From: Trypanosoma brucei
Lineage: Eukaryota
Length of the DNA: 64,000 nucleotides
NCBI GenBank assembly: GCA_000002445.1
Contig: CP000067.1
Location: 960,001 to 1,024,000, forward strand
Reading direction: 5' to 3'
The first letter of the stretch is position 1; each line of letters begins with the position of its first letter. This document shows positions 12,828 to 63,045 of the stretch, in pieces. The notes under the pieces are model-generated. The model saw nothing but the letters and a program-made list of their open reading frames with translations, was not told the DNA's origin and made no database searches. Position numbers and translations under genes: made by a program.

Positions 12828-13029
12828 CATGACAATTTCGCTGCGGTATTAAGGACCAGCTCCCCGGTAATATGGATGAGAAACCGAGGGTCACTCTCTC
12901 ATCCGTTATATTGATAAATGGCTCTGGAAGATCGCGTGCCACAGTACAAATGCTGCTTCTCATCGGCTGAGGATGAGTTATGAAGAAAATACGTTCGCGG
13001 AGCTCCACCCCGCCGCTACCATCATGCTT
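12828..13029 (-). repeat. Right arm of the ~205-bp inverted repeat pair
   Basis: Reverse-complement match to 8722-8926. It ends about 240 bp upstream of the adenylate cyclase ORF at 13266. Confidence 0.85.
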
Positions 13030-13265
13030 GCGTTTATGTTTGGATGCTTTGGAGGGTGACAGTAAGGTACTGCGCATGTACGCTAGGGGAAGACCTGTTT
13101 GCGATTGAAGGGTGTGTGTGTCTTGGCGCAGTTGCGTCTCGAATCCTTTGACAATTTTCCCAGCGCATAAACATTTTATTAGGGTCTCTGGATCTGGGAT
13201 GTCTCTGAGGTGCCACCGTACCTGTCGATGTCACGAGGTAGACGTTTCAAACTTAGGTTGCTCCA

Positions 13266-25700: not shown

Positions 25701-26611
25701 ATAAAATACTTTGAAATATAACCTTCGCAGCGGCGCATGGCAGCGAATTGCAAATGAAAGAAAGAGAAAGAAAGAGTGTGTGTGTATGGGAGACAGGGCC
25801 GCTCACTTCTATCTGCAGTTTGAATATAAATAAATAAATAAATATATATATATATATTTTCCCCTTTTTAATTTATTTTGAATTCTGTTATTTTAGTTAG
25901 TTTTTCTTTTTTTTTTTCGTTATTCTGATGGGTCGTCACCTGAAGCGATGACGATTACTCCCACACGCATACGTGACGAAAATATAAAAAAAATTGAATA
26001 TATATATATATATATTTTCTTTTTCCCTCTTTCTCAAATACGTGTATTTAATTGATTGATTAATTAATTAATTAAACGAGCGAGCGAGCGAATGAGCCAG
26101 TGTACTCATAGAGGGATGCCTGCACGGAACCCGTCTTTCCTCCCCTAATGTTATTATTTTTATTGTTATTATTATTTTTTTTTAAATAAAAAACAGAGGC
26201 AAAACAAAACCCGAAAAAAAAAAAGAAGAAAAGATTAAATAAATAGTAAAAATAAAAATAACACCCGTGCGCGCCCTCCCAAGTTTGCTACTTGAAATAT
26301 GTATCTACATTTGTTTTCAGTACTTTTGTTTTTGATTTTTTAAATAAAAATAACAAGTGATCCGTTGCCACTATTGAACCGTGCGCTGAGATAATATTTC
26401 GCGTGGGAACCACCTGTACACGCACACAAATACATGCATTAAGTATATAAAAGTATATAAAAATATGAATTTGTGTCTGTTTGTGTGTGCTTTTCGTTCC
26501 TTTCTTTTATTTTCTTTTGTTTTGTTTTGCTTCGTTTTTTTTCTTTGTTTTTTCCCTTTTCCTCTTTTTCACTCTCTCATACTTGAGTGATAGAGAGAAT
26601 ATTCCATCACA
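22792..26611. repeat. 3.8-kb AT-rich low-complexity intergenic spacer: poly(A)/poly(T), (TAAA)n, (TA)n, (GAAA)n, (CAGTT)n at 22934-22955, (ATGC)n at 24507-24520
   Basis: Seen directly. No ORF above 125 aa. Composed of homopolymers and short-period repeats without a long-period tandem unit. Confidence 0.7.
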
Positions 26612-46112: not shown

Positions 46113-47266
46113 GATTACTAAGCTGAAGTAACCTCAGGTGGTGAAGATATTTCCTATTAAGGACAGATAAGAGAAGAAAAGTAAAGCAAAAATAAGAGAT
46201 AATAATAAAGAAAAAGAAAAATAATAATCAGAAAAATAAGATAAATCACTCAAAAGCACACTGAACAAGCAAAAACAATTATAAAGCAATATATCACTAA
46301 AAACAAAAAAAATGAAAGATAAATTAAAAAAAAATTAACCTGCAAAAATAAACCATTCCTCCAAAGCTTTAACATCACCCACAAACATAACGACAAAGTT
46401 AAAAATCACATAGACATAAATAGTTCTTATGTAACAATTAACAGAGCAAAACATGATAAATTTCACACCCTCTCCAAAAAAGGAAAAAAAATTCGACAGA
46501 GCTCCACAAATTAGGTTGGAGGCCAACCTTACCATTTTCGTACCTGGCATACTGAAGGCAAATGGAAGAAAAGTATGAGGTGTTGACATATGCGGGATCG
46601 TAGTAAGCAACATCACACATAGGGGGAGGGAATGACTGAAAACGCAAACAAATACAAATGATGAAATACGAAGATACAAACCAAGCGGTGCTATTGCGCA
46701 CACGTGAGGGGCGTACAAGGATTTTCCTCATATTGGTTGCGTTGCTTCAGAATAATGGTATGGATGCAACAGTTAGCCACGGAAAAGGCACAATAGCATT
46801 TGCATTCGACACAGTAGAGAAAGGGGAGAGATGTGTACACATAAACCAATATAACAATAAGGGGAGAAAACATCGAACCGAGCAGTTGGTAAAAATGGTG
46901 ATAGGGTAGCGGTTGTAATATTGACATAATAAAACAGGCACTGCCACATTAAAAGATGTTTTTGAACAGAGTTGTGAGTCGGCAGGAGGTGCGTGCACAG
47001 TAATTAAATGCCGGGACCACAACATCCACACTACAGACAGTTATGAAGAGTAGACCATAACATGTGTTTAGTGAGGCAGGGGATAAACCAAAAAAGGATC
47101 TACAAGACATGATTAACATATTTGCAAGGGGGCCGAAACAAAAACATATAACAACGTTAACATGTGTGGTAAACGTAAATGGGAAAAGGAAAAATTACGA
47201 ACCTTTGCAACATACACCACCAACACATAGGGTAACACAAGCTTTCCACAGTTAAAGCGAAAACAA

Positions 47267-50200
47267 TTAATTCCCGTGAAGCTCACGCTCCAATCCATGA
47301 TTGGAAATTATAATGAGTGACGCACTCCTAAGTGTACTGACAGAGTGCTCACTGCCAACTGCTGCACAGTGATCGACCACTCGACCCACTTTCACTGCAA
47401 TACGCCGTATAACTCCTTCGCAATATTCCTCATTCCACGTGGCTTTCGATGACGGCGGGAGGCTCACCTGCCAGCGCTCGCATAAAGGCATCAATAGTTT
47501 CTGTCTTTGGGATAGAGGGACTGTACCGAAAACAGCGTGCAAACAGCTATCAATCATCTGCGAAGTTCCACTTAATACGCCACGTAAGGATCCCGTATCG
47601 CTGAAGGAAGTGCTTGACAGATCCCCGTCCTCGACAACCTCGTGGTCCAACCTCAGTGCTGCGAAGGACCGTCCGACTACAGCGTTTAGTTGGTACATTT
47701 CAACAGGCTCAGGGACGCCACGCAACGACATGGATCCAAGAGCTGTCACGTCAAGTTGCCCACGCTCTGAATTGCTTAGCGAAAGATATGCCGCGCGCGT
47801 CAGCAGCACCTGACCACCATTAGCCACACTTTCTGTTCGCGCTGCCATGTTTGATGTTCGCCCGTAGTAATCGTAGCCTTTTGTCACTTCGTCATGACGG
47901 ATATCGCAAAGACCAGTGTGGACCCCGACACGCACGCGCAACCCATTCCACAGTTGGCGATAAACCTCAGGATCCAACCGTGCGGACGGTGCCTTGTATT
48001 CGTTATCGTCATCTGCACGCTGCCTCTCAAACTCACGATACGAATCGTCGAATGCTGTGGTGCCCCACTCATGGCACAGGAAGCACCGCTGTAAGTCGGA
48101 CGCAAGCTGTGCAGCAGCAAAAGGTTTTTTACAAGCAATCATAAACGAGTCCCCAACAGTCTTTACCTCATAGCATCCGTACTGTACGATGAGTGAGCGG
48201 ATAAGACGGTGGTGTGTTGACACGGCATCAGGCATCAGCTCAGGGTGTGCTGCCCACTGCGCTGTGCTGCTCTCTATGTCAGTAAAGATTAGCGTTACGG
48301 GCTCCACCGGCTCCTTGGGAGCACTGTCATTGTCACGCGCACCACGGCGCAGAACATAGAGCACCACCACCAGAGGCGCAGCAAACAAAGCCAAGGCGAC
48401 GAGGGAACCAACAATAACTCCGGCAAGTTGTGCGGACGACAACTTAATGGCGTTAGGATCAGCGTAGCGTATCAATGGCGTGACGGGCGAGGTTAATGGC
48501 GGTACGGAGGCATTTAATGCACGTGCCAGTGACCACATGGAAATACGCGTTGCGCCATAGTTCACGACACACACCTCTCCTTGTTCAGGGACTGGGTCAT
48601 TGGCTGTGAAGCACTCCTTCTCCTCTTCCTCTTCAAAAGGACCGTACCGCATTTCATCCGCGGTAATGATAGATTGCATGTAGATGGTGTCAAGCAGCGT
48701 TTTGGGTGTCACATACTCCATGCGTGGGAGGACGGCTTGAGCAAACCGTGCAGCAGCGTACCCCAGCAACGGCAGCGGCTTCCATGCTGATGAGTCTGGC
48801 AATGCGGTATGAAATTCTCTTACGATCTCTGATGACGTATTGGCGTCTGCCCAGTGAGGTAAACTTGTCGCGAACTGCACACGCTCAGCGTTCGGGTTAC
48901 CATTGAATGCGCTGACCAGCTCATCATACATCAGGGCAACGTCGAAGAATGGGATGAGCACACGCACATCTGGGTTGCGATCCAGGTGCGCTGCGAGCAA
49001 GGAAGGGTCACCGGGGGCAAGACCAATAACAAACGCATTCCCACGGTTTGGCAGGCGCCCAACAAGGGTGGCATTGTCATCCAGCACAGCTACCGTTTGC
49101 AGTGTTCCGCCGTGCATCCAAACAATCTTCCGCAGTGCGACCTCAATGATGGTGGCATCAGCTCCACGTACGATGGCAGACATAGGGGCGCTGGCACTTG
49201 TGTTTGTCACGTAACCCACAACAACAAACAACTGCTGCTCGAGTGTGGGTGAAAGTTGAATCACGTTTTTGCCACGATGATGCAGGCGTGGTGTAAGCAT
49301 TACGGGGTCAACGAAGGCAACTTCGGCAATGGACAGCATCGCATCGTCAACGACACCAAACACAGCCGTCACACTCCTTGTGTCAAGCTGATGCTGCAAT
49401 GTTCTGGCACTTTCCGCTGAGGATGATGCCATTGAATGAAAGAACAGTTGTCGTGAAAGAACTGAATCCTTTTCGCTGATCGGTGAGTGCAGTGCCGCTG
49501 ACATCGACGCATATGTATCCACAGGTAGCGCCGTATCAAACAAAGTTAAGGACAGGATACTCATCGGTGATGGGATTCTCGGTTTGTTTATGTAACACTT
49601 TTTGGAATCAAAAATTGTTACTCCGCCGTTGACTGGAAATAATCTATAGCTACTACCAATAACGTTTATGTATACCACACTTCCTCCCTGATTACAGTTG
49701 CATGCTGCTCCTCGCTCACCGGCCCCACCTTTGCAGTCTCCACCAAAATCACCAATCACAAGGTCGTCAATAACATAACGGCGCTGGTTATACAGTGACT
49801 CCATGAATGCCTTCCTGCTTGTTAGCCACTCCCGACTACTTAGCGCCTGGGACAGCACTTCTCCCGCAATCCACCCATACACCATAAGCCTCCCATCCAC
49901 GTCGTCGTGGTCGAAGTTATCCGTGCCATTGAAAACAGTCACTCCAGGATTAGCGCTCAGGTACGACCTCATGTGATCCTGAAAGCGCCTGATTGCTTGG
50001 TATCGTATGTCTGCTGCTAGTGGATTTGTTCCAGTCAATATTACCTGTCCAAATTTCAAAGGCGCCCCTGCAGCTTCCAATGCCTCGCGCCACGCTCCTA
50101 CGATAGAAAACTCGAGTGCCGAAGGAGCCAGTACATAAGCGTCGCGTGTACGTTTGTCAGCTACCATCTTTTTCATAAACTGTATTGAATCTTTTCCAGG

Positions 50201-50965
50201 TGGTGCAAATAAAATTACGCCCTGAGGTTCTGTTAGAGCGAAATCGTTCCATAAGAAATCGAAATTGTGACTGCCATACAAACCTTCGTCGTCGATATTC
50301 TTTGTGAACACACCGCACAGCTCACGACCCATATGAGAGAACAGCTCTACTGCATGCTTATACTCACTATCACCAAAGGACGCGTTCTGAAGATACATAA
50401 ATCCAATCCGAAGCAGGCGCAGTTGGCTGACGGCGTGCCGCACCAATGCAATAAGCTCGGCAGTGGGTGACACGCGGATAAAATATATGTTGGGATTCCA
50501 TCCACGCACAATACTCGACCCTGTAGATGGAGCGAAGGCAACCAGATCTTCCCGCTTCAGCAATGGAAGTAATAACACCGTACGGCGGTCACTTAATGGT
50601 CCAAACACAACAAATAAACCCTTTTCTGTAGTAGCAACACGTTGTAAGGCATCAACTACTTCAACGTTGTTAGGGGGAGGCGGCACAACCTGCACCGTTA
50701 CATTGGGTGCCACAGTCCACTGGCGAGCGGCAAATGACGCATTGAGGCCGGCATTTATTGCTTCGACTAGTCTGTACTCAACGTAGGGACTATAAATGAA
50801 AGAGTAAACCTTCACCTTTATGTTTCCCTCTGAGTGCGCTGGAAGAACATTTGAGAACAGTAACAGTGCCATAACGGTGGAAAGGCGACAGTGCCACACA
50901 GCGTAGCCCGCGGATTTGCTCGCAGCAGGCGTGTGAGGACCATCAGTTTCACTGTGGTAAATCAT
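47267..50965 (-). CDS. GRESAG4: Receptor-type adenylate cyclase (GRESAG4-like), array copy 1
   Basis: 1232-aa ORF with the same architecture and catalytic motifs as the 13266..17090 gene. The probable start is the internal ATG at 50872 (MALLLFSNVLPAHSEG, signal-peptide-like). Confidence 0.9.
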   Translation of the reverse strand: MIYHSETDGPHTPAASKSAGYAVWHCRLSTVMALLLFSNVLPAHSEGNIKVKVYSFIYSPYVEYRLVEAINAGLNASFAARQWTVAPNVTVQVVPPPPNNVEVVDALQRVATTEKGLFVVFGPLSDRRTVLLLPLLKREDLVAFAPSTGSSIVRGWNPNIYFIRVSPTAELIALVRHAVSQLRLLRIGFMYLQNASFGDSEYKHAVELFSHMGRELCGVFTKNIDDEGLYGSHNFDFLWNDFALTEPQGVILFAPPGKDSIQFMKKMVADKRTRDAYVLAPSALEFSIVGAWREALEAAGAPLKFGQVILTGTNPLAADIRYQAIRRFQDHMRSYLSANPGVTVFNGTDNFDHDDVDGRLMVYGWIAGEVLSQALSSREWLTSRKAFMESLYNQRRYVIDDLVIGDFGGDCKGGAGERGAACNCNQGGSVVYINVIGSSYRLFPVNGGVTIFDSKKCYINKPRIPSPMSILSLTLFDTALPVDTYASMSAALHSPISEKDSVLSRQLFFHSMASSSAESARTLQHQLDTRSVTAVFGVVDDAMLSIAEVAFVDPVMLTPRLHHRGKNVIQLSPTLEQQLFVVVGYVTNTSASAPMSAIVRGADATIIEVALRKIVWMHGGTLQTVAVLDDNATLVGRLPNRGNAFVIGLAPGDPSLLAAHLDRNPDVRVLIPFFDVALMYDELVSAFNGNPNAERVQFATSLPHWADANTSSEIVREFHTALPDSSAWKPLPLLGYAAARFAQAVLPRMEYVTPKTLLDTIYMQSIITADEMRYGPFEEEEEKECFTANDPVPEQGEVCVVNYGATRISMWSLARALNASVPPLTSPVTPLIRYADPNAIKLSSAQLAGVIVGSLVALALFAAPLVVVLYVLRRGARDNDSAPKEPVEPVTLIFTDIESSTAQWAAHPELMPDAVSTHHRLIRSLIVQYGCYEVKTVGDSFMIACKKPFAAAQLASDLQRCFLCHEWGTTAFDDSYREFERQRADDDNEYKAPSARLDPEVYRQLWNGLRVRVGVHTGLCDIRHDEVTKGYDYYGRTSNMAARTESVANGGQVLLTRAAYLSLSNSERGQLDVTALGSMSLRGVPEPVEMYQLNAVVGRSFAALRLDHEVVEDGDLSSTSFSDTGSLRGVLSGTSQMIDSCLHAVFGTVPLSQRQKLLMPLCERWQVSLPPSSKATWNEEYCEGVIRRIAVKVGRVVDHCAAVGSEHSVSTLRSASLIIISNHGLERELHGN

Positions 50966-52427
50966 TGAATACGTGAAGGAAGCAATGAATGGCTTGCTTT
51001 AGGTGAGTGGCCGTATGTGTACGCGTGCTTGTTGTCTACAAAAGTTGTGTGGGAGGTGGGTGCAGTGCAAAGAAATTTGGTGGGATTATAAATGGCGGAC
51101 ACAACCTTCCACAACAGCATCAAAGAGAAGATTTGCGATTCACACTGTTATAGGTAGCAGCGTGACGAAAAACAGTAACAGCTGCAACAGATTGTGGTGT
51201 TAGGCCAGCACAGACTGCTACAGCACGACACAAGTGGGTGTAAAGCTGGCTTTCATTACATTGGCGCAACTCGAATAAACTCGACAGGGCAGCAACGAAT
51301 TCGGAACAGCTCCCTCGGAAATCACTAAAGGCAGTCACGTGATCAAGATCTGTCACGAAAAATGGCACGCCGCTGCCAGCCGGGGGATTATATACTTGGG
51401 TGCTGCCGATACACGCGTAATTCCTTCCACGCAGTAAATGATAAGATGGAGCAACGGCGACACCCGAATCGGAAGCCACACGCGGCGAAATAGGACAGAA
51501 TCGCATTCAGTCATAGGTCACAAGTATTGCGTTGTTCAGCCATGCGATTGCAAAAACGGTAGTATCCAAATTACATCGCATACAACATTCACTCAATCCA
51601 TATCGTGCACGAAGAACACAAAATGTGGGTACGAGCCATTACCACACGGCATCGACACGCAGGACTGGGTCATCGTTTGGAGGCCAACCTTACCATTTTC
51701 GTACCTGGCATACTGAAGGCAAATGGAAGAAAAGTATGAGGTGTTGACATATGCGGGATCGTAGTAAGCAACATCACACATAGGGGGAGGGAATGACTGA
51801 AAACGCAAACAAATACAAATGATGAAATACGAAGATACAAACCAAGCGGTGCTGTTGCGCACACGTGAGGGGCGTACAAGGATTTTCCTCATATTGGTTG
51901 CGTTGCTTCAGAATAATGGTATGGATGCAACAGTTAGCCACGGAAAAGGCACAATAGCATTTGCATTCGACACAGTAGAGAAAGGGGAGAGATGTGTACA
52001 CATAAACCAATATAACAATAAGGGGAGAAAACATCGAACCGAGCAGTTGGTAAAAATGGTGATAGGGTAGCGGTTGTAATATTGACATAATAAAACAGGC
52101 ACTGCCACATTAAAAGATGTTTTTGAACAGAGTTGTGAGTCGGCAGGAGGTGCGTGCACAGTAATTAAATGCCGGGACCACAACATCCACACTACAGACA
52201 GTTATGAAGAGTAGACCATAACATGTGTTTAGTGAGGCAGGGGATAAACCAAAAAAGGATCTACAAGACATGATTAACATATTTGCAAGGGGGCCGAAAC
52301 AAAAACATATAACAACGTTAACATGTGTGGTAAACGTAAATGGGAAAAGGAAAAATTACGAACCTTTGCAACATACACCACCAACACATAGGGTAACACA
52401 AGCTTTCCACAGTTAAAGCGAAAACAA

Positions 52428-55400
52428 TTAATTCCCGTGAAGCTCACGCTCCAATCCATGATTGGAAATTATAATGAGTGACGCACTCCCGAGTGTGCTG
52501 ACAGAGTGCTCACTGCCACTTGCTGCACAGTGATCCGCAACTCGACCCACTTTCACTGCAATACGCCGTATAACTCCTTCGCAATATTCCTCATTCCACG
52601 TGGCTTTCGATGACGGCGGGAGGCTCACCTGCCAGCGCTCGCATAAAGGCATCAATAGTTTCTGTCTTTGGGATAGAGGGACTGTACCGAAAACAGCGTG
52701 CAAACAGCTATCAATCATCTGCGAAGTTCCACTTAATACGCCGCGTAAGGATCCCGTATCGCTGAAGGAAGTGCTTGACAGATCCCCGTCCTCGCCAGAT
52801 TCGTGGTCCAACCTCAGTGCTGCGAAGGACCGTCCGACTACAGCGTTTAGTTGGTACATTTCAACAGGCTCAGGGACGCCACGCAACGACATGGATCCAA
52901 GAGCTGTCACGTCAAGTTGCCCACGCTCTGAATTGCTTAGCGAAAGATATGCCGCGCGCGTCAGCAGCACCTGACCACCATTAGCCACACTTTCTGTTCG
53001 CGCTGCCATGTTTGATGTTCGCCCGTAGTAATCGTAGCCTTTTGTCACTTCGTCATGACGGATATCGCAAAGACCAGTGTGGACCCCGACACGCACGCGC
53101 AACCCATTCCACAGTTGGCGATAAACCTCAGGATCCAACCGTGCGGACGGTGCCTTGTATTCGTTATCGTCATCTGCACGCTGCCTCTCAAACTCACGAT
53201 ACGAATCGTCGAATGCTGTGGTGCCCCACTCATGGCGCAGGAAGCACCGCTGTAAGTCGGACGCAAGCTGTGCAGCAGCAAAAGGTTTTTTACAAGCAAT
53301 CATAAACGAGTCCCCAACAGTCTTTACCTCATAGCATCCGTACTGTACGATGAGTGAGCGGATAAGACGGTGGTGTGTTGACACGGCATCAGGCATCAGC
53401 TCAGGGTGTGCTGCCCACTGCGCTGTGCTGCTCTCTATGTCAGTAAAGATTAGCGTTACGGGCTCCACCGGCTCCTTGGGAGCACTGTCATTGTCACGCG
53501 CACCACGGCGCAGAACATAGAGCACCACCACCAGAGGCGCAGCAAACAAAGCCAAGGCGACGAGGGAACCAACAATAACTCCGGCAAGTTGTGCGGACGA
53601 CAACTTAATGGCGTTAGGATCAGCGTAGCGTATCAATGGCGTGACGGGCGAGGTTAATGGCGGTACGGAGGCATTTAATGCACGTGCCAGTGACCACATG
53701 GAAATACGCGTTGCGCCATAGTTCACGACACACACCTCTCCTTGTTCAGGGACTGGGTCATTGGCTGTGAAGCACTCCTTCTCCTCTTCCTCTTCAAAAG
53801 GACCGTACCGCATTTCATCCGCGGTAATGATAGATTGCATGTAGATGGTGTCAAGCAGCGTTTTGGGTGTCACATACTCCATGCGTGGGAGGACGGCTTG
53901 AGCAAACCGTGCAGCAGCGTACCCCAGCAACGGCAGCGGCTTCCATGCTGATGAGTCTGGCAATGCGGTATGAAATTCTCTTACGATCTCTGATGACGTA
54001 TTGGCGTCTGCCCAGTGAGGTAAACTTGTCGCGAACTGCACACGCTCAGCGTTCGGGTTACCATTGAATGCGCTGACCAGCTCATCATACATCAGGGCAA
54101 CGTCGAGGAATGGGATGAGCACACGCACATCTGGGTTGCGATCCAGGTGCGCTGCGAGCAAGGAAGGATCACCGGGGGCAAGACCAATAACAAACGCATT
54201 CCCACGGTTTGGCAGGCGCCCAACAAGGGTGGCATTGTCATCCAGCACAGCTACCGTTTGCAGTGTTCCGCCGTGCATCCAAACAATCTTCCGCAGTGCG
54301 ACCTCAATGATGGTGGCATCAGCTCCACGTACGATGGCAGACATAGGGGCGCTGGCACTTGTGTTTGTCACGTAACCCACAACAACAAACAACTGCTGCT
54401 CGAGTGTGGGTGAAAGTTGAATCACGTTTTTGCCATGATGATGCAGGCGTGGTGTAAGCATTACGGGGTCAACGAAGGCAACTTCGGCAATGGACAGCAT
54501 CGCATCGTCAACGACACCAAACACAGCCGTCACACTCCTTGTGTCAAGCTGATGCTGCAATGTTCTGGCACTTTCCGCTGAGGATGATGCCATTGAATGA
54601 AAGAACAGTCGCCGTGAAAGGGCTGATTCTCTTCCCCTGGTGGAAGCGTACAGCGCCTCGGACATCGACGCATATGTATCCACAGGTAGCGCCGTATCAA
54701 ACAAAGTTAAGGACAGGATACTCATCGGTGATGGGATTCTCGGTTTGTTTATGTAACACTTTTTGGAATCAAAAATTGTTACTCCGCCGTTGACTGGAAA
54801 TAATCTATAGCCACTACCAATAACATTCATTAGTACCAGACTTCCTCCCTGATTACAGTTGCATGCTGCTCCCTGTTTAGCCGCCCCACCTTTGCAGTCT
54901 CCACCAAAATCACCAATCACAAGGTCGTCAATAACATAACGGCGCTGGTTATACAGTGACTCCATGAATGCCTTCCTGCTTGTTAGCCACTCCCGACTAC
55001 TTAGCGCCTGGGACAGCACTTCTCCCGCAATCCACCCATACACCATAAGCCTCCCATCCACGTCGTCGTGGTCGAAGTTATCCGTGCCATTGAAAACAGT
55101 CACTCCAGGATTAGCGCTCAGGTACGACCTCATGTGATCCTGAAAGCGCCTGATTGCTCGGTAGAGTGTGTTTTTTGCTAGTGGATTTGTTCCAGTCAAT
55201 ATTACCTGTCCAAACTTCAAAGGCGCCCCTGCAGCTTCCAATGCCTCGCGCCACGCTCCTACGATAGAAAACTCGAGTGTTGAATGAGCCAGTACGTAAG
55301 CGTCGCGTGTACGTTTGTCAGCCACTATTTTATTCAGAAACCTCATTGTGTCGTTGATTGGTGGTGCAACAGCGATTACGCCCTGAGGCCGCGTCTTCGC

Positions 55401-56126
55401 AAACGCTTCCCACGCCGCTTCGAAGGCTCTGTCGTCAGCAAAAGCTTCCATTGAGCTTTTTACAGTAAACACGCCGCACAGCTCACGACCCATATGAGAG
55501 AACAGCTCTACTGCATGCTTATACTCACTATCACCAAACGAAATGTCCCGAAGATACATAAATCCAATCCGAAGCAGGCGCAGTTGGCTGACAGCATACC
55601 GGACCAATGCAATAAGCTCGGCAGTGGGTGAAGCGCGGATAAAATATATGTTGGGATTCCATCCACGCACAATACTCGACCCTGTAGATGGAGCGAAGGC
55701 AACCAGATCTTCCCGCTTCAGCAATGGAAGTGCGTGTAATGTTTCAATATCGGTCAGTGGTCCAAACACAACAAATAAACCCTTTTCTGTAGTAGCAACA
55801 CGTTGTAAGGCATCAACTACTTCAACGTTGTTAGGGGGAGGCGGCACAACCTGCACCGTTACATTGGGTGCCACAGTCCACTGGCGAGCGGCAAATGACG
55901 CATTGAGGCCGGCATTTATTGCTTCAACTTGTCTGTACTCGAAGTAGGGACTATAAATGAAAGAGTAAACCTTCACCTTTATGTTTCCCTCTGAGTGCGC
56001 TGGAAGAACATTTGAGAACAGTAACAGTGCCATAACGGTGGAAAGGCGACAGTGCCACACAGCGGAGCCCGCGGATTTGCTCGCAGCAGGCGTGTGAGGA
56101 CCATCAGTTTCACTGTGGTAAATCAT
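52428..56126 (-). CDS. GRESAG4: Receptor-type adenylate cyclase (GRESAG4-like), array copy 2
   Basis: 1232 aa. The C-terminal 700 aa are near-identical to copy 1. The N-terminal domain differs in discrete patches. Confidence 0.9.
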   Translation of the reverse strand: MIYHSETDGPHTPAASKSAGSAVWHCRLSTVMALLLFSNVLPAHSEGNIKVKVYSFIYSPYFEYRQVEAINAGLNASFAARQWTVAPNVTVQVVPPPPNNVEVVDALQRVATTEKGLFVVFGPLTDIETLHALPLLKREDLVAFAPSTGSSIVRGWNPNIYFIRASPTAELIALVRYAVSQLRLLRIGFMYLRDISFGDSEYKHAVELFSHMGRELCGVFTVKSSMEAFADDRAFEAAWEAFAKTRPQGVIAVAPPINDTMRFLNKIVADKRTRDAYVLAHSTLEFSIVGAWREALEAAGAPLKFGQVILTGTNPLAKNTLYRAIRRFQDHMRSYLSANPGVTVFNGTDNFDHDDVDGRLMVYGWIAGEVLSQALSSREWLTSRKAFMESLYNQRRYVIDDLVIGDFGGDCKGGAAKQGAACNCNQGGSLVLMNVIGSGYRLFPVNGGVTIFDSKKCYINKPRIPSPMSILSLTLFDTALPVDTYASMSEALYASTRGRESALSRRLFFHSMASSSAESARTLQHQLDTRSVTAVFGVVDDAMLSIAEVAFVDPVMLTPRLHHHGKNVIQLSPTLEQQLFVVVGYVTNTSASAPMSAIVRGADATIIEVALRKIVWMHGGTLQTVAVLDDNATLVGRLPNRGNAFVIGLAPGDPSLLAAHLDRNPDVRVLIPFLDVALMYDELVSAFNGNPNAERVQFATSLPHWADANTSSEIVREFHTALPDSSAWKPLPLLGYAAARFAQAVLPRMEYVTPKTLLDTIYMQSIITADEMRYGPFEEEEEKECFTANDPVPEQGEVCVVNYGATRISMWSLARALNASVPPLTSPVTPLIRYADPNAIKLSSAQLAGVIVGSLVALALFAAPLVVVLYVLRRGARDNDSAPKEPVEPVTLIFTDIESSTAQWAAHPELMPDAVSTHHRLIRSLIVQYGCYEVKTVGDSFMIACKKPFAAAQLASDLQRCFLRHEWGTTAFDDSYREFERQRADDDNEYKAPSARLDPEVYRQLWNGLRVRVGVHTGLCDIRHDEVTKGYDYYGRTSNMAARTESVANGGQVLLTRAAYLSLSNSERGQLDVTALGSMSLRGVPEPVEMYQLNAVVGRSFAALRLDHESGEDGDLSSTSFSDTGSLRGVLSGTSQMIDSCLHAVFGTVPLSQRQKLLMPLCERWQVSLPPSSKATWNEEYCEGVIRRIAVKVGRVADHCAASGSEHSVSTLGSASLIIISNHGLERELHGN

Positions 56127-57588
56127 TGAATACGTGAAGGAAGCAATGAATGGCTTGCTTTAGGTGAGTGGCCGTATGTGTACGCGTGCTTGTTGTCTAC
56201 AAAAGTTGTGTGGGAGGTGGGTGCAGTGCAAAGAAATTTGGTGGGATTATAAATGGCGGACACAACCTTCCACAACAGCATCAAAGAGAAGATTTGCGAT
56301 TCACACTGTTATAGGTAGCAGCGTGACGAAAAACAGTAACAGCTGCAACAGATTGTGGTGTTAGGCCAGCACAGACTGCTACGGCACGACACAAGTGGGT
56401 GTAAAGCTGGCTTTCATTACATTGGCGCAACTCGAATAAACTCGACAGGGCAGCAACGAATTCGGAACAGCTCCCTCGGAAATCACTAAAGGCAGTCACG
56501 TGATCAAGATCTGTCACGAAAAATGGCACGCCGCTGCCAGCCGGGGGATTATATACTTGGGTGCTGCCGATACACGCGTAATTCCTTCCACGCAGTAAAT
56601 GATAAGATGGAGCAACGGCGACACCCGAATCGGAAGCCACACGCGGCGAAATAGGACAGAATCGCATTCAGTCATAGGTCACAAGTATTGCGTTGTTCAG
56701 CCATGCGATTGCAAAAACGGTAGTATCCAAATTACATCGCATACAACATTCACTCAATCCATATCGTGCACGAAGAACACAAAATGTGGGTACGAGCCAT
56801 TACCACACGGCATCGACACGCAGGACTGGGTCATCGTTTGGAGGCCAACCTTACCATTTTCGTACCTGGCATACTGAAGGCAAATGGAAGAAAAGTATGA
56901 GGTGTTGACATATGCGGGATCGTAGTAAGCAACATCACACATAGGGGGAGGGAATGACTGAAAACGCAAACAAATACAAATGATGAAATACGAAGATACA
57001 AACCAAGCGGTGCTGTTGCGCACACGTGAGGGGCGTACAAGGATTTTCCTCATATTGGTTGCGTTGCTTCAGAATAATGGTATGGATGCAACAGTTAGCC
57101 ACGGAAAAGGCACAATAGCATTTGCATTCGACACAGTAGAGAAAGGGGAGAGATGTGTACACATAAACCAATATAACAATAAGGGGAGAAAACATCGAAC
57201 CGAGCAGTTGGTAAAAATGGTGATAGGGTAGCGGTTGTAATATTGACATAATAAAACAGGCACTGCCACATTAAAAGATGTTTTTGAACAGAGTTGTGAG
57301 TCGGCAGGAGGTGCGTGCACAGTAATTAAATGCCGGGACCACAACATCCACACTACAGACAGTTATGAAGAGTAGACCATAACATGTGTTTAGTGAGGCA
57401 GGGGATAAACCAAAAAAGGATCTACAAGACATGATTAACATATTTGCAAGGGGGCCGAAACAAAAACATATAACAACGTTAACATGTGCGGTAAACGTAA
57501 ATGGGAAAAGGAAAAATTACGAACCTTTGCAACATACACCACCAACACATAGGGTAACACAAGCTTTCCACAGTTAAAGCGAAAACAA

Positions 57589-60500
57589 TTAATTCCCGTG
57601 AAGTTCACGCTCCAATCCATGATTAGAAATTATAATGAGTGACGCACTCCCGAGTGTGCTGACAGAGTGCTCACTGCCACTTGCTGCACAGTGATCCGCA
57701 ACTCGACCCACTTTCACTGCAATACGCCGTATAACTCCTTCGCAATATTCCTCATTCCACGTGGCTTTCGATGACGGCGGGAGGCTCACCTGCCAGCGCT
57801 CGCATAAAGGCATCAATAGCTGCTGTTGGTGTGCAGGAGCGAACGCACCAAAAACTGCTTTAATCGATATCGAGAATTTCTGTGCCGACGCGTTGATTGA
57901 TCCACGTAAGGATCCCGTATCGCTGAAGGAAGTGCTTGACAGATCCCCGTCCTCGCCAGCTTCGTGGTCCAACCTCAGTGCTGCGAAGGACCGTCCGACT
58001 ACAGCGTTTAGTTGGTACATTTCAACAGGCTCAGGGACGCCACGCAACGACATGGATCCAAGAGCTGTCACGTCAAGTTGCCCACGCTCTGAATTGCTTA
58101 GCGAAAGATATGCCGCGCGCGTCAGCAGCACCTGACCACCATTAGCCACACTTTCTGTTCGCGCTGCCATGTTTGATGTTCGCCCGTAGTAATCGTAGCC
58201 TTTTGTCACTTCGTCATGACGGATATCGCAAAGACCAGTGTGGACCCCGACACGCACGCGCAACCCATTCCACAGTTGGCGATAAACCTCAGGATCCAAC
58301 CGTGCGGACGGTGCCTTGTATTCGTTATCGTCATCTGCACGCTGCCTCTCAAACTCACGATACGAATCGTCGAATGCTGTGGTGCCCCACTCATGGCGCA
58401 GGAAGCACCGCTGTAAGTCGGACGCAAGCTGTGCAGCAGCAAAAGGTTTTTTACAAGCAATCATAAACGAGTCCCCGACAGTCTTTACCTCATAGCATCC
58501 GTACTGTACGATGAGTGAGCGGATAAGACGGTGGTGTGTTGACACGGCATCAGGCATCAGCTCAGGGTGTGCTGCCCACTGCGCTGTGCTGCTCTCTATG
58601 TCAGTAAAGATTAGCGTTACGGGCTCCACCGGCTCCTTGGGAGCACTGTCATTGTCACGCGCACCACGGCGCAGAACATAGAGCACCACCACCAGAGGCG
58701 CAGCAAACAAAGCCAAGGCGACGAGGGAACCAACAATAACTCCGGCAAGTTGTGCGGACGACAACTTAATGGCGTTAGGATCAGCGTAGCGTATCAATGG
58801 CGTGACGGGCGAGGTTAATGGCGGTACGGAGGCATTTAATGCACGTGCCAGTGACCACATGGAAATACGCGTTGCGCCATAGTTCACGACACACACCTCT
58901 CCTTGTTCAGGGACTGGGTCATTGGCTGTGAAGCACTCCTTCTCCTCTTCCTCTTCAAAAGGACCGTACCGCATTTCATCCGCGGTAATGATAGATTGCA
59001 TGTAGATGGTGTCAAGCAGCGTTTTGGGTGTCACATACTCCATGCGTGGGAGGACGGCTTGAGCAAACCGTGCAGCAGCGTACCCCAGCAACGGCAGCGG
59101 CTTCCATGCTGATGAGTCTGGCAATGCGGTATGAAATTCTCTTACGATCTCTGATGACGTATTGGCGTCTGCCCAGTGAGGTAAACTTGTCGCGAACTGC
59201 ACACGCTCAGCGTTCGGGTTACCATTGAATGCGCTGACCAGCTCATCATACATCAGGGCAACGTCGAAGAATGGGATGAGCACACGCACATCTGGGTTGC
59301 GATCCAGGTGCGCTGCGAGCAAGGAAGGGTCACCGGGGGCAAGACCAATAACAAACGCATTCCCACGGTTTGGCAGGCGCCCAACAAGGGTGGCATTGTC
59401 ATCCAGCACAGCTACCGTTTGCAGTGTTCCGCCGTGCATCCAAACAATCTTCCGCAGTGCGACCTCAATGATGGTGGCATCAGCTCCACGTACGATGGCA
59501 GACATAGGGGCGCTGGCACTTGTGTTTGTCACGTAACCCACAACAACAAACAACTGCTGCTCGAGTGTGGGTGAAAGTTGAATCACGTTTTTGCCACGAT
59601 GATGCAGGCGTGGTGTAAGCATTACGGGGTCAACGAAGGCAACTTCGGCAATGGACAGCATCGCATCATCAACGACACCAAACACAGCCGTCACACTCCT
59701 TGTGTCAAGCTGATGCTGCAATGTTCTGGCACTTTCCGCTGAGGATGATGCCATTGAATGAAAGAAAAGTCGGTGAAATTGTGTCATATCGGCGTTGCGA
59801 TTGGTAGCTGATGCTGATTTATGAATTTCGCGATTGATTTTTTTTTTTCGATGAGATTCATTGCTGAGGATAAATAATCCGTTAAGTGGTGCATAAAGGA
59901 TGATGCCATCGGCATCGCACATTCCATGTTGTATTACTTTCACCGGGTTCTTTGCTGGTAGAAGTTTGTAATTTTCTGCAAACTGCTTTACGTATACCAC
60001 ACTTCCTCCCTGATTACAGTTGCATGCTGCTCCTCGCTCACCGGCCCCACCTTTGCAGTCTCCACCAAAATCACCAATCACAAGGTCGTCAATAACATAA
60101 CGGCGCTGGTTATACAGTGACTCCATGAATGCCTTCCTGCTTGTTAGCCACTCCCGACTACTTAGCGCCTGGGACAGCACTTCTCCCGCAATCCACCCAT
60201 ACACCATAAGCTCCCCATCCACGTCGTCGTGGTGGAAGTTATCCGTGCCATTGAAAACAGTCACTCCAGGATTAGCGCTCAGGTACGACCTCATGTGATC
60301 CTGAAAGCGCCTGATTGCTTGGTATCGTATGTCTGCTGCTAGTGGATTTGTTCCAGTCAATATTACCTGTCCCGGCTTCAATTGTTTACCAGCCGCCGCT
60401 AGTGCAAAGCGCCACGTCACTTCAACTACGAACTCTAGTGCCGAGGGAGCCAGTACGTAAGCGTCGCGTGTACGTTTGTCAGCTACCATCTTGGTAATAA

Positions 60501-61293
60501 ATTTAACAGTGTCTCTTGCTGCTGGTGGTGCAAATAAAATTACGCCCTGAGGCCGCGTCTTCGCAAACGCTTCCCACGCCGCTTCGAAGGCTCTGTCGTC
60601 AGCAAAAGCTTCCATTGAGCTTTTTACAGTAAACACACCGCACAGCTCACGACCCATATGAGAGAACAGCTCTACTGCATGTTCATGCTCTCTGTCACCA
60701 AACGAAATGTCCTGAAGATACATAAATCCAATCCGAAGCAGGCGCAGTTGGCTGACAGCATACCGGACCAATGCAATAAGCTCGGCAGTGGGTGAAGCGC
60801 GGATAAAATATATGTTGGGATTCCATCCACGTACAGAGTCGGAACCGGTTATAGGAGCGAAGGCAACCAGATCTTCCCGCTCCAGCAATGGAAGTGCGTG
60901 TAATGTTTCAACATCGCCCATTGGCCCGATAATTATAATAAACTTACCTTTATTTTGGTTTATGGTATCATGCAGTGTTTCCATAAATGAAACGTTGTTA
61001 GGGGGAGGCGGCACAACCTGCACCGTTACATTGGGTGCCACAGTCCACTGGCGAGCGGCAAATGACGCATTGAGGCCGGCATTTATTGCTTCAGTTAGCC
61101 TCAGAGGCAACCTTTGTAGGGAGAGAAAAGAGTAAACCTTCACCTTTATGTTTCCCTCTGAGTGCGCTGGAAGAACATTTGAGAACAGTAACAGTGCCAT
61201 AACGGTGGAAAGGCGACAGTGCCACACAGCGGAGCCCGCGGATTTGCTCGCAGCAGGCGTGTGAGGACCATCAGTTTCACTGTGGTAAATCAT
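57589..61293 (-). CDS. GRESAG4: Receptor-type adenylate cyclase (GRESAG4-like), array copy 3 (most divergent extracellular domain and C-terminal tail)
   Basis: 1234 aa. The catalytic region is identical. Copy-specific segments encode VKQFAENYKLLPAKNPVKVIQHGMCDADGIILYAPLNG... and a C-tail patch GSINASAQKFSISIKAVFGAFAPAHQQQ. Confidence 0.88.
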   Translation of the reverse strand: MIYHSETDGPHTPAASKSAGSAVWHCRLSTVMALLLFSNVLPAHSEGNIKVKVYSFLSLQRLPLRLTEAINAGLNASFAARQWTVAPNVTVQVVPPPPNNVSFMETLHDTINQNKGKFIIIIGPMGDVETLHALPLLEREDLVAFAPITGSDSVRGWNPNIYFIRASPTAELIALVRYAVSQLRLLRIGFMYLQDISFGDREHEHAVELFSHMGRELCGVFTVKSSMEAFADDRAFEAAWEAFAKTRPQGVILFAPPAARDTVKFITKMVADKRTRDAYVLAPSALEFVVEVTWRFALAAAGKQLKPGQVILTGTNPLAADIRYQAIRRFQDHMRSYLSANPGVTVFNGTDNFHHDDVDGELMVYGWIAGEVLSQALSSREWLTSRKAFMESLYNQRRYVIDDLVIGDFGGDCKGGAGERGAACNCNQGGSVVYVKQFAENYKLLPAKNPVKVIQHGMCDADGIILYAPLNGLFILSNESHRKKKINREIHKSASATNRNADMTQFHRLFFHSMASSSAESARTLQHQLDTRSVTAVFGVVDDAMLSIAEVAFVDPVMLTPRLHHRGKNVIQLSPTLEQQLFVVVGYVTNTSASAPMSAIVRGADATIIEVALRKIVWMHGGTLQTVAVLDDNATLVGRLPNRGNAFVIGLAPGDPSLLAAHLDRNPDVRVLIPFFDVALMYDELVSAFNGNPNAERVQFATSLPHWADANTSSEIVREFHTALPDSSAWKPLPLLGYAAARFAQAVLPRMEYVTPKTLLDTIYMQSIITADEMRYGPFEEEEEKECFTANDPVPEQGEVCVVNYGATRISMWSLARALNASVPPLTSPVTPLIRYADPNAIKLSSAQLAGVIVGSLVALALFAAPLVVVLYVLRRGARDNDSAPKEPVEPVTLIFTDIESSTAQWAAHPELMPDAVSTHHRLIRSLIVQYGCYEVKTVGDSFMIACKKPFAAAQLASDLQRCFLRHEWGTTAFDDSYREFERQRADDDNEYKAPSARLDPEVYRQLWNGLRVRVGVHTGLCDIRHDEVTKGYDYYGRTSNMAARTESVANGGQVLLTRAAYLSLSNSERGQLDVTALGSMSLRGVPEPVEMYQLNAVVGRSFAALRLDHEAGEDGDLSSTSFSDTGSLRGSINASAQKFSISIKAVFGAFAPAHQQQLLMPLCERWQVSLPPSSKATWNEEYCEGVIRRIAVKVGRVADHCAASGSEHSVSTLGSASLIIISNHGLERELHGN

Positions 61294-63045
61294 TGAATAC
61301 GTGAAGGAAGCAATGAATGGCTTGCTTTAGGTGAGTGGCCGTATGTGTACGCGTGCTTGTTGTCTACAAAAGTTGTGTGGGAGGTGGGTGCAGTGCAAAG
61401 AAATTTGGTGGGATAAAATAAGTGTTAATGTTAGATATGATAGTGCTGCACCGGTATTAAGTCACATAGTTGTATCTTTTTTCTGTTTTCATCTGGATGA
61501 CGTTTCCTTCACCGAGCCGCTGCATGTCATTACTTCCATTGGTATTCGCATTTTTTATATTTGAGAACGATTCAAATCTTATTTATGTTTTCTTTTGTGA
61601 ATTTTAGTTGCAATCTTACTTTTCACCTCGTTTTGTTGCCGTTGTTTTCGTGCTTTTCTACATTCTTTTGCCCATGTGAAAGGGAACATGGGCGTCCGTG
61701 TGCGTGAAAAGCTGCGGATCCCGCTGCTCTTAGCGAATAACGTCAGCGTTGAATTCCACCTGATACAGATAATTTATAAACGGGTACTCGAAATGTCAAC
61801 ATGCTGCTGAGCAGAGCCCAATGCTCTGAAGGGCGAGAGGGGAAATAAGGAGTTGCTGATGGTATCTTTGTTCGACTGCTGCCTTTTGGTGGCGGCGCAT
61901 GGAAGACGACACATATATTTGCCCGTTCATGCACGTAAGGTCGTAGCCCGTGTCGTGTGGCGGGGGACTCTTACTCCCATTTGCCCTGCTGCACTTGTCT
62001 TAACTCCGCTCCATGTTTCTCACCATTCCTTTTTCCGGTGTATCAGAAGTATGAACCATCTTCACGTGAAAAAAAAATAATCAGGGACACCGTTTATGAT
62101 GCTGCGCTGTTAGTCACGTGAGTTTTCGTACGCAGCTCGCCTGCGAACCGTTTGGGGAAAAGGAAGTCACTTGCAGAAGCATGACCTGGTCTCAAAATAG
62201 TGTGTATCGCTCTGTATGGCGGCGTGGAAACACAGATATCGGTTCTGATTGACATATTTTGTACCTTTCCTGCGGCTAGCCTACCTACTACACGGGTTCC
62301 CCGCTTTCTTTTTCTCTAACTCCTCGTACCGTTGCTGCTAGAGGCGTCTAAAAATACAGAGGGAAACAATTTCCCTTTATACTTTCCTTTTCCTTCTTTG
62401 CCAGTGTATCACTACTGCACCGTATCAGCAGTAAGATTCCTTCCTTACCTAGAACCAACCCGGGAAACTGCGGCGGCAGGTGCTCCACCTTCGAACTGAG
62501 TTGGTCTTCGGACTGATGCTACTGGGCCATTTCTCCTCTTTCTTTCGTTAAAGCCCTAACTAAAAAGTGTAGGAGTGGAGGGGGTTTGAAATTTTGTGTA
62601 GGGTTAACAGAGGGCCTCAGTTAAACTCTCAACGACTTATCATCGTCCTCCGTTCTCAGCATCACACTTCCTGCACGATGGGGTGAATTTTCTTTTTTTT
62701 TGACTCACCCCTCGCCTCAGCTTCCCTTTTCCCATGAGTCTGTGACTTTAAAGAGCATATGTGTGGTCGAGAGCTCACCAATTTGTGCCGCTGCAACTAC
62801 GGGGAAAAAGGCCAAATTTCCGAAGCAACCTCCTCCCATGAAACAAAAAGAAAATTAAGGTGCGTACGCACAATGAAGGACAGCGCACACACGCGTGCCC
62901 ACCACGCTCTCTTTCCCTCACTAGCCTTCGTACCGACCAGCATCAAGCATCATTTTTCGCTGGATGTTAGTGAAACTCACAGCGCCAGTTTGCAGCCGTA
63001 CAGCTCTCCCTCCCACCGCTGCGTACGCTTCAGTGCTAATTTGCC

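What the first reader, a model, noticed from the sequence alone, without database searches (positions are those of the whole stretch)
57589..61293. Mosaic cyclase paralogues: invariant catalytic half, patchwork extracellular half
From LDTRSVTAVFGVV through the TM helix and the whole cyclase domain the four proteins are essentially identical. Differences are confined to the extracellular ligand-binding-type domain and occur as discrete blocks, not scattered substitutions. Copy 1 is unique around 50180-50340 (KNIDDEGLYGSHNFDFLWNDFALTEP versus VKSSMEAFADDRAFEAAWEAFAKTRP in copies 2 and 3). Copy 3 is unique around 59750-60000, 60370-60550, 60830-61000, and in a C-terminal tail patch at 57815-57905. 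Copies 2 and 3 share blocks that copy 1 lacks. This is the signature of segmental gene conversion between paralogues combined with diversification of the sensor domain, a receptor family being diversified on a conserved signalling chassis.
Basis: partly seen in the sequence, partly recalled or inferred. Interest (0 to 1): 0.6.

Follow-up and report, generated by a model that had tools for sequence, protein, structure and literature searches.

The report
Mosaic trypanosome adenylate cyclase gene array
Four receptor adenylate cyclase genes of Trypanosoma brucei chromosome 4 keep a nearly identical rear two-thirds through ongoing gene conversion while retaining old, very different cassettes in the outermost sensor domain; the pattern is real, but it has already been published for this gene array.

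Summary
The window is T. brucei brucei TREU927 chromosome 4. It holds a tandem array of three GRESAG4 receptor adenylate cyclase genes (c1, c2, c3; Tb927.4.3860-3880) and a fourth, inverted copy (P) about 30 kb away.

The block pattern is real. Against c2, c3 differs at 40% of positions in six patches and at 0.4% elsewhere. Synonymous divergence is 0.004-0.04 in shared blocks and 0.3 to saturated in patches. This rules out purifying selection as the cause. Permutation and PHI tests reject a uniform spread.

All large c3 patches are 99-100% conserved in the T. b. gambiense orthologue, so they are not sequencing errors. Other strains carry different combinations of the same block types. Six sites are fixed in all four TREU927 copies, P included, against all gambiense and equiperdum copies, which indicates concerted evolution.

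Two corrections:
- The invariant part starts inside the ectodomain, so the whole second binding-protein-like domain is homogenised.
- The patches look like old relics rather than fresh imports. No donor was found, dN/dS is below 1, and orthologue rates are not raised.

Jackson et al. 2010 already list this array as recombinant, so it counts as already known.

The parts
57589..61293 (-). c3: GRESAG4 receptor adenylate cyclase, 1234 aa (XP_844538; Tb927.4.3880). First gene of the tandem array in the direction of transcription.
   Evidence: ORF. Exact match to the annotated TREU927 protein. Pfam PF25495, PF13458, PF25493 and PF00211.
52428..56126 (-). c2: GRESAG4 copy, 1232 aa (XP_844537).
47267..50965 (-). 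c1: GRESAG4 copy, 1232 aa (XP_844536; Tb927.4.3860). Last gene of the array.
13266..17090 (+). P: dispersed, inverted GRESAG4 copy, 1274 aa (XP_844525; Tb927.4.3750 inferred from accession order). Its own sensor lineage is joined to the array-type chassis.
   Evidence: N-terminal blocks cluster with P0075/P0077/P0086, while the homogenised region clusters with the array at 100% bootstrap.
46516..61421 (-). Extent of the tandem repeat: 5161-bp units, each a CDS plus a 1462-nt spacer. It includes 751 nt shared downstream of c1 and 128 nt shared upstream of c3.
   Evidence: Self-BLAST and spacer comparison.
57905..59766 (-). Homogenised chassis of c3 (nt 1528-3389): rest of VFT2, TM helix (58672-58749) and cyclase domain (58006-58638). 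Six differences from c2 in 1862 nt. Also shared with P from 59711 downwards.
14968..17068 (+). Tract of P that is 96.6-98.2% identical to the array copies. It ends 22 nt before P's stop codon, and P's flanks are unrelated to the array's.
60044..60319 (-). Invariant island inside the variable half (c3 nt 975-1250, aa 326-416): C-terminal helices of VFT1 up to the Cys-rich linker. dS is 0-0.06 among all four copies.
59767..60043 (-). c3 patch F (aa 417-509): linker and first beta-alpha unit of VFT2. 44% nucleotide identity to c2 and 99% to the gambiense orthologue.
60320..60538 (-). c3 patch E (aa 252-325): 70% identity to c2 and 100% to the gambiense orthologue.
60832..60990 (-). c3 patch B (aa 102-154): 65% identity to c2 and 100% to the gambiense orthologue.
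61094..61126 (-). c3 patch A (aa 56-67): 39% identity to c2. 100% identity to gambiense g700 and to equiperdum e1.
57820..57904 (-). c3 C-terminal tail patch (aa 1130-1158): 48% identity to c2, with flanks identical to c2. 99% identity to the gambiense orthologue.
50119..50312 (-). c1-unique patch D (aa 218-283, KNIDDEGLYGSHNF...): 63% identity to c2. 96% identity to gambiense g698 and to equiperdum e2.
60682..60713 (-). Small cluster of substitutions in c3 (five within 13 nt) that is specific to TREU927 and absent from the gambiense orthologue.

Best explanation
These are members of the T. brucei GRESAG4 family of receptor-type adenylate cyclases. The domain order is signal peptide, membrane-distal VFT1, Cys-rich linker, membrane-proximal VFT2, one TM helix, a class III cyclase domain and a C-terminal tail.

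The three tandem copies and the inverted copy P are old paralogues. Their outer sensor cassettes diverged long ago, and synonymous sites in those cassettes are saturated.

Homologous recombination keeps overwriting the rest of the gene. Within the 5161-bp tandem units this means non-reciprocal gene conversion and unequal crossing-over. With P it means ectopic conversion confined to the coding sequence. As a result, VFT2, the TM helix, the cyclase domain, an island in VFT1 and the spacers evolve in concert.

The exchanged tracts begin and end in stretches of near identity, so the divergent segments behave as cassettes. They are either kept or swapped whole, which produces different mosaics in different strains.

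**Shown here:** the block structure, the jump in dS, phylogenetic incongruence, strain-specific mosaics, and genome-specific substitutions shared by all copies.

**Inferred:**
- Divergence itself blocks conversion inside the cassettes. Recombination in T. brucei is known to depend on homology and mismatch repair (from my own knowledge, not tested here).
- Selection for distinct VFT1 sensors and a distinct c3 tail may also block it.
- The proteins sense different ligands through VFT1.
For: **Identity**
- The four proteins match annotated TREU927 GRESAG4 proteins exactly.
- Domains were found by Pfam. The catalytic domain matches PDB 1FX2 and 1FX4 at E about 1e-120.
- The ectodomain model (pLDDT 85.7) matches LIVBP-type binding proteins.

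**Homogenisation rather than constraint**
- dS is 0.004-0.04 in shared blocks and 0.3 to above 1.3 in patches.
- VFT2 is 99-100% identical within the group but only 50-54% identical to the nearest outside family members. That is no better than the variable VFT1 blocks score against outsiders.
- The spacers are 99.86% identical.

**Recombination**
- All three 2|2 site patterns occur, and they are clustered.
- PHI and run tests give p <= 0.001.
- Copies g698, g695, e1 and e2 reassort the c1, c2 and c3 block types. T. equiperdum has only two copies, and e1 looks like a c3/c2 crossover product.

**Concerted evolution that includes P**
- Six sites (c3 nt 1656, 1719, 1722, 2202, 2706, 3492) are fixed in all TREU927 copies against all gambiense and equiperdum copies.
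- c3 and c2 differ by 0.41% outside the patches, less than the 0.97% between c3 and its orthologue.
- P plus the array is monophyletic at 100% bootstrap in the chassis but at 2% in the sensor blocks.
- P shares no flanking sequence with the array.

**Patches are old and stable**
- They are 99-100% identical to the gambiense orthologue.
- Orthologue divergence is equal inside and outside the patches.

**Literature**
- Jackson et al. 2010, Table 2, array 25: PHI p < 0.001 and at least 9 GARD breakpoints.
- Jackson 2007: gene conversion in adenylate cyclase arrays.
Against: - dS in the patches is saturated, so their age and their dN/dS values are only rough.
- All cross-strain evidence comes from assemblies of near-identical 5-kb repeats. 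Some apparent exchanges could be assembly chimeras. These include the P-type tract at nt 2664-3084 in gambiense g700, the P-type copy g697 that abuts a 100-N gap, and the two-copy equiperdum array.
- Homogeneity could be slightly inflated by consensus building across repeats.
- Only cluster representatives at 90% identity from public assemblies were compared, so a donor in unassembled subtelomeres cannot be excluded.
- Nothing here measures ligand binding, expression or activity.
Confidence: 0.85

Rival explanations
1. The array arose by recent tandem duplication, and short patches were then imported by conversion from other GRESAG4 or ESAG4 family members elsewhere in the genome.
For: - Patches have sharp edges with identical flanks. 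The clearest case is the 85-nt tail patch.
- In c3 patches many sites agree with P against c1 and c2, e.g. 19 sites in alignment aa 501-520.
- In NJ trees the c3 tail and block B do not group with c1 and c2.
- A TREU927-specific five-substitution cluster looks like a micro-conversion.
Against: - No donor was found. The best outside identity for any c3 patch is 33-58% at protein level, no better than to the sister copies.
- There are no adenylate cyclase fragments elsewhere in the window.
- Over all variable N-terminal blocks the array copies are still monophyletic at 100% bootstrap.
- The large patches predate the brucei/gambiense split.
Confidence: 0.1
2. The array arose by recent duplication, followed by fast local divergence of the sensor patches through positive selection or local hypermutation.
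For: The differences fall in a putative ligand-binding ectodomain of a host-parasite interface family. Population scans have flagged adenylate cyclase genes, though the paper's table and text disagree on the direction of selection.
Against: - Synonymous sites in the patches are saturated, and dN/dS is 0.2-0.8.
- Between subspecies, the patches change no faster than the rest of the gene: 1.24% against 0.97% for c3, and 0.88% against 0.86% for c2.
Confidence: 0.03
3. The pattern is an artefact. Identical stretches come from collapsing or consensus-merging of repeats during assembly, or the patches are sequencing errors.
For: - The units are near-identical 5-kb repeats, which are hard to assemble.
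- The gambiense array contains two 100-N gaps and low-quality copies.
Against: - The same patches, in frame and 99-100% identical, appear in an independent gambiense assembly, and in part in an equiperdum assembly.
- Copy-specific single differences survive inside the homogenised part.
- P lies in unique flanking sequence yet carries the same chassis.
Confidence: 0.02

Closest known systems
Tandem array 25, 'Adenylate cyclase, GRESAG4, Tb927.4.3880', in Jackson et al. 2010 (PLoS Negl Trop Dis 4:e658; PMC2854126, Table 2)
   Same: It is the same locus. The paper reports 3 copies in T. b. brucei and 4 annotated in T. b. gambiense, 3 shared isoforms and 1 gambiense-specific isoform. PHI is p < 0.001, with 2 LRT breakpoints and at least 9 GARD breakpoints. 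The authors interpret this as sequence mosaics made by recombination among tandem duplicates.
   Different: The paper gives only a table row. It does not map the blocks onto domains, report dS per block, or describe the c3 tail patch. From what I read, it is also unclear whether the inverted copy P was included.
Gene conversion and concerted evolution in T. brucei tandem arrays (Jackson 2007, BMC Evol Biol 7:54; PMC1855330), e.g. adenylate cyclase array Tb62 (Tb927.7.6080)
   Same: Same family and same mechanism. Gene conversion tracts among tandem GRESAG4 copies were detected by SISCAN, GENECONV and RETICULATE.
   Different: It concerns a different array on chromosome 7. The analysis used a single genome and tandem copies only.
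General architecture of trypanosomatid receptor adenylate cyclases: variable ectodomain with two VFT domains, conserved catalytic domain, variable C-terminal tail of about 110 aa (Salmon 2018 review, PMC6027212; Bieger and Essen 2001, PDB 1FX2/1FX4)
   Same: The domain order is the same, and so is the family-wide contrast between a variable N-terminus and a conserved cyclase domain.
   Different: Family-wide, VFT2 is as variable as VFT1: 50-54% identity to the nearest outsiders. In this group VFT2 is 99-100% identical, which reflects recombination rather than constraint.
Segmental gene conversion that builds mosaic VSG genes in T. brucei (my own knowledge, not tested here)
   Same: The organism is the same, and homology-dependent copying of segments between paralogues yields mosaics.
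   Different: VSG mosaics are assembled during infection from a large silent archive into an expression site, under immune selection. Here there is no archive and no expression site, and the block types have been stable since before the subspecies split.
Gene conversion shaping receptor adenylate cyclases in Leishmania donovani (Rogozin et al. 2020, as cited in PMC7719234)
   Same: Conversion among receptor adenylate cyclase paralogues in another trypanosomatid.
   Different: I did not read the paper itself. The species is different and the family is much smaller.

Membership tests
Trypanosomatid receptor-type adenylate cyclase (GRESAG4/ESAG4, Fam51) | Class III cyclase homology domain | tested here: met
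   PF00211 at E = 1e-37, aa 886-1096. PDB 1FX4 and 1FX2 (GRESAG4.3 and 4.1 catalytic domains) at E = 1e-120 and 1e-118.
Trypanosomatid receptor-type adenylate cyclase (GRESAG4/ESAG4, Fam51) | Large ectodomain with two VFT / periplasmic-binding-protein-like domains | tested here: met
   PF13458 and PF25495 (aa 117-395) and PF25493 (aa 466-837). The AF2 model has pLDDT 85.7. Top Foldseek hits are Leu/Ile/Val-binding proteins, probability 1.0.
Trypanosomatid receptor-type adenylate cyclase (GRESAG4/ESAG4, Fam51) | Single transmembrane helix between the ectodomain and the cyclase domain | tested here: met
   The hydrophobic segment at aa 849-874 has the highest Kyte-Doolittle score in the protein. 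The model predicts a helix over residues 817-847, which is aa 846-876.
Trypanosomatid receptor-type adenylate cyclase (GRESAG4/ESAG4, Fam51) | Adenylate cyclase activity and activation by dimerisation | not testable with these tools
   Needs an enzyme assay. Known for other family members.
Concerted evolution / gene-conversion mosaic among paralogues | Large differences in synonymous divergence between adjacent segments of the same gene pair | tested here: met
   For c2 against c3, dS is 0.005-0.008 in the chassis, 1.5 in block F and 1.3 in the tail patch.
Concerted evolution / gene-conversion mosaic among paralogues | Phylogenetically incompatible sites clustered along the alignment | tested here: met
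   PHI is 0.376 against a permuted 0.463 +/- 0.009, p <= 0.001. 46% of informative site pairs are incompatible.
Concerted evolution / gene-conversion mosaic among paralogues | In the homogenised part, paralogues within a genome are more alike than orthologues between genomes, with genome-specific substitutions shared by all copies | tested here: met
   Six sites are fixed by genome across P and the array. c3 and c2 differ by 0.41%, against 0.97% for c3 and g700. Caveat: this rests on the accuracy of assembled repeats.
Concerted evolution / gene-conversion mosaic among paralogues | Different mosaics of the same segment types in different strains | tested here: met
   g698, g695, e1 and e2 compared with c1, c2 and c3. 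Published for this array.
Sensor domain under diversifying (positive) selection | dN/dS above 1, or a raised substitution rate in the variable blocks | tested here: not met
   Block dN/dS is 0.2-0.8, with dS saturated. Orthologue divergence in the patches equals that elsewhere. Site-wise tests on population data were not possible.
Cassette import from a silent donor archive (VSG-like mosaic formation) | Identifiable donor sequences for the patches | tested here: not met
   No donor among 64 full-length family members or partial hits. None in the window. Unassembled subtelomeres were not searched.

The most novel reading that the evidence does not exclude
The identical VFT2-TM-cyclase chassis may not be just a by-product of recombination. 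Selection may keep it identical so that paralogues with different VFT1 sensors, and a different c3 tail, can pair with each other. These cyclases are active only as dimers. Heterodimers would give combinatorial receptors, as in class C GPCR heterodimers. The centromere-proximal, inverted copy P comes from another sensor lineage and would have been recruited onto the same chassis by ectopic conversion. Nothing here tests dimerisation. The evidence shows only that the homogenised tract covers exactly the parts expected to make dimer contacts, and that it crosses lineage boundaries.
Probability: 0.1. Interest if true: 0.6.

Novelty: already known. Interest (0 to 1): 0.2.

Why it matters
Receptor adenylate cyclases are the largest family of putative environmental sensors in African trypanosomes. 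They are linked to suppression of host innate immunity and to parasite migration in the tsetse fly, yet their ligands are unknown.

Knowing which segments are old, stable cassettes and which are merely homogenised helps in three practical ways:
- It points to where ligand specificity is likely to reside: VFT1 and the first unit of VFT2.
- It warns that whole-gene trees of this family mix two histories.
- It warns that short-read mapping, RNA-seq, RNAi and tagging cannot tell these copies apart over two-thirds of their length.

As a discovery it adds little. Mosaic evolution of this array by recombination is already in the literature.

Tried and rejected
- **N-terminal-only protein search.** A search with only the N-terminal 576 aa of c3 returned partial proteins and missed the full-length T. 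brucei paralogues. It was repeated with the full protein.
- **Donor search.** Block-wise BLASTP and alignment identity were run against every retrieved family member, and tblastn against the rest of the window. No donor was found.
- **gambiense copy CBH10697 (g697).** It joins a P-type sensor to a c3-type tail and would be striking evidence for exchange between P and the array. I set it aside because the P-type part starts at a 100-N assembly gap.
- **Centromeric repeat.** I looked for the published chromosome-4 centromeric 147-bp array next to P. No such array is in the window. The AT-rich stretch at 23-26.5 kb is low-complexity spacer, not satellite.
- **Other scans of the window.** No tRNA or Rfam hits were found. 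Short ORFs in the ORF-poor left 13 kb have no Pfam hits.
- **Failed script.** A Biopython bootstrap run timed out and was replaced by a numpy neighbour-joining script.
- **Structure mapping.** The tools do not expose model coordinates, so patches could be mapped only onto predicted secondary structure, not onto the binding cleft.
- **GARD and RDP** were not available. My own PHI, run and window tests were used instead.


Full report
**Identity of the locus**

The four long ORFs translate to proteins that match annotated proteins of Trypanosoma brucei brucei TREU927 chromosome 4 exactly. [quoted passage not shown]

| Copy | Window coordinates | Accession |
|---|---|---|
| P | 13266-17090 (+) | XP_844525 |
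| c1 | 47267-50965 (-) | XP_844536 |
| c2 | 52428-56126 (-) | XP_844537 |
| c3 | 57589-61293 (-) | XP_844538 |

RNA polymerase II subunit 2 lies between P and the array. Published work names the array genes Tb927.4.3860-3880. From the order of accessions, P should be Tb927.4.3750; this is an inference.

Each protein has two periplasmic-binding-protein (VFT) type regions: PF13458/PF25495 at aa 117-395 and PF25493 at aa 466-837. A hydrophobic helix follows at aa 849-874, then a class III cyclase domain at aa 886-1096. The catalytic domain matches the solved GRESAG4.1 and 4.3 structures at E about 1e-120. An AlphaFold model of the c3 ectodomain (pLDDT 85.7, pTM 0.84) matches Leu/Ile/Val-binding proteins and class C GPCR flytrap domains.

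Protein and codon alignments show blocks with no differences next to blocks where 50-65 of 90 nucleotides differ.

Patches of c3 against c2, in window coordinates:
- 61094-61126
- 60832-60990
- 60682-60713
- 60320-60538
- 59767-60043
- 57820-57904

Inside these patches 40.5% of positions differ. Outside them 0.41% differ. The main patch unique to c1 is 50119-50312.

All three ways of pairing the copies occur, and they occur in clusters. Third-codon-position differences are far more clustered than in any of 2000 permutations. A PHI test on 123 informative sites gives p <= 0.001.

**The invariant part is not explained by constraint**

Synonymous divergence is 0.004-0.04 in the shared blocks. In the patches it ranges from 0.3 to saturation.

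The shared part also begins inside the ectodomain, at LDTRSVTAVFGVV (aa 529). It covers nearly all of VFT2. VFT2 is 99-100% identical among the four copies but only 50-54% identical to the nearest family members outside the group. That is no more conserved family-wide than the variable VFT1 blocks.

A second island that is invariant in all four copies lies in VFT1 (window 60044-60319).

The two 1462-nt spacers between array genes differ at 2 sites. The repeat unit is 5161 bp.

P shares no flanking sequence with the array. Its similarity starts inside the coding sequence and stops 22 nt before its stop codon.

**Comparison with other genomes**

I fetched the orthologous loci from T. b. gambiense DAL972 and T. 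equiperdum IVM-t1.

- The gambiense orthologue of c3 (g700) carries every large c3 patch at 99-100% nucleotide identity. The patches are therefore neither sequencing errors nor recent.
- Between subspecies the patches change no faster than the rest of the gene: 1.24% against 0.97% for c3, and 0.88% against 0.86% for c2.
- Other copies are different mosaics of the same block types.
  - g698 mixes c1-type and c2-type blocks.
  - g695 is c2-type with a c1-type 3' end.
  - The equiperdum array has two copies. Its first copy, e1, is c3-type only in patch A and then c2-type or c1-type, as an unequal crossover would produce.
- In the homogenised part, six sites separate all four TREU927 copies, P included, from all gambiense and equiperdum copies.
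- Paralogues within TREU927 are closer to each other there than c3 is to its own orthologue. This is concerted evolution, and it continued after these lineages split.
- g700 also carries a tract (nt 2664-3084) with alleles specific to gambiense P. That suggests ectopic conversion, but misassembly in a near-identical region cannot be excluded.
- The gambiense copy with a P-type sensor inside the array (g697) abuts a 100-N gap, so I did not use it.

**Origin of the patches**

No other family member resembles any patch closely. The best outside identities are 33-66% at protein level, about the same as between the sister copies. No cyclase fragments lie elsewhere in the window.

In neighbour-joining trees, P plus the array is one clade in the chassis at 100% bootstrap. 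In the variable blocks that clade has 2% support, and P instead groups with other GRESAG4 lineages (P0075, P0077, P0086). The three array copies stay together at 100%.

The simplest reading has two parts. First, the sensor cassettes are old. Second, the chassis has been spread across copies, even across lineages, by conversion. dN/dS in the patches is 0.2-0.8, so there is no sign of positive selection. This estimate is rough because dS is saturated.

**Mechanism**

Shown here:
- Recombination among the copies homogenises the spacers, the 5' end, the VFT1 island, VFT2, the TM helix, the cyclase domain and most of the tail.
- The divergent cassettes are kept or swapped whole.

Inferred:
- Tract ends fall in near-identical stretches because recombination needs homology.
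- Selection may also protect distinct VFT1 sensors and the c3-specific tail segment.
- VFT1 and the first unit of VFT2 are therefore the likely seat of any ligand specificity.

**What is already known**

The family-wide contrast between a variable ectodomain and a conserved cyclase domain is standard knowledge. Gene conversion in T. brucei adenylate cyclase arrays was described by Jackson in 2007. This exact array appears in Table 2 of the T. b. gambiense genome paper. [quoted passage not shown]

This analysis adds detail:
- the domain map of the blocks
- dS per block
- the boundary inside the ectodomain
- the conserved c3 tail patch
- the participation of the inverted copy P

**Verdict**

The gene-conversion interpretation is supported. 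The claim of active sensor diversification by imported patches is not supported. The phenomenon is already known, so interest is low.

Noticed in passing
window 60682-60713 (c3 nt 581-612): Five substitutions within 13 nt (GATAGTGAGTATAAG to GACAGAGAGCATGAA; SEYK to REHE) occur only in TREU927 c3. They are absent from the gambiense orthologue and from every other copy. No T. brucei family member retrieved carries the motif. The cause could be a micro-conversion from an unsampled donor, a multinucleotide mutation or a sequence error.
   Followed up: partly
window 8717-8916 and 12835-13034: A 200-bp inverted repeat (98.5% identical) brackets about 3.9 kb just upstream of P, inside a 13-kb stretch with no long ORFs and no Pfam hits. 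Obado et al. 2007 place the chromosome-4 centromeric 147-bp array and flanking degenerate retroelements between Tb927.4.3740 and Tb927.4.3750. The latter is P by inference. The satellite itself is not in the window.
   Followed up: partly
window 23000-26500: A 3.5-kb stretch with 28-29% G+C lies between a 401-aa ORF and a protein kinase gene. It consists of low-complexity A/T-rich runs and microsatellites, not a satellite array.
   Followed up: partly
L001 10037-10136 and 17030-17129 (T. b. gambiense DAL972 array): Two 100-N gaps sit inside the gambiense array. One lies directly before a copy (CBH10697) that joins a P-type sensor to a c3-type tail. This may be a real recombinant or a scaffold chimera.
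   Followed up: partly
L003/L004 (T. equiperdum IVM-t1): The orthologous array has only two copies, against three in TREU927 and six gene models in DAL972. This is either copy-number variation or collapse during assembly.
   Followed up: partly
protein P0077: A full-length receptor-type adenylate cyclase, 55% identical to c3, is deposited under Schistosoma mansoni. It is probably trypanosome contamination in that record.
   Followed up: no
L002 10001-13705, c3-equivalent nt 2664-3084 (gambiense g700): The gambiense orthologue of c3 carries P-type alleles in the cyclase domain, including two found only in gambiense P. This is either a tract of at least 420 nt converted from the inverted copy, or reads misplaced during assembly.
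   Followed up: partly
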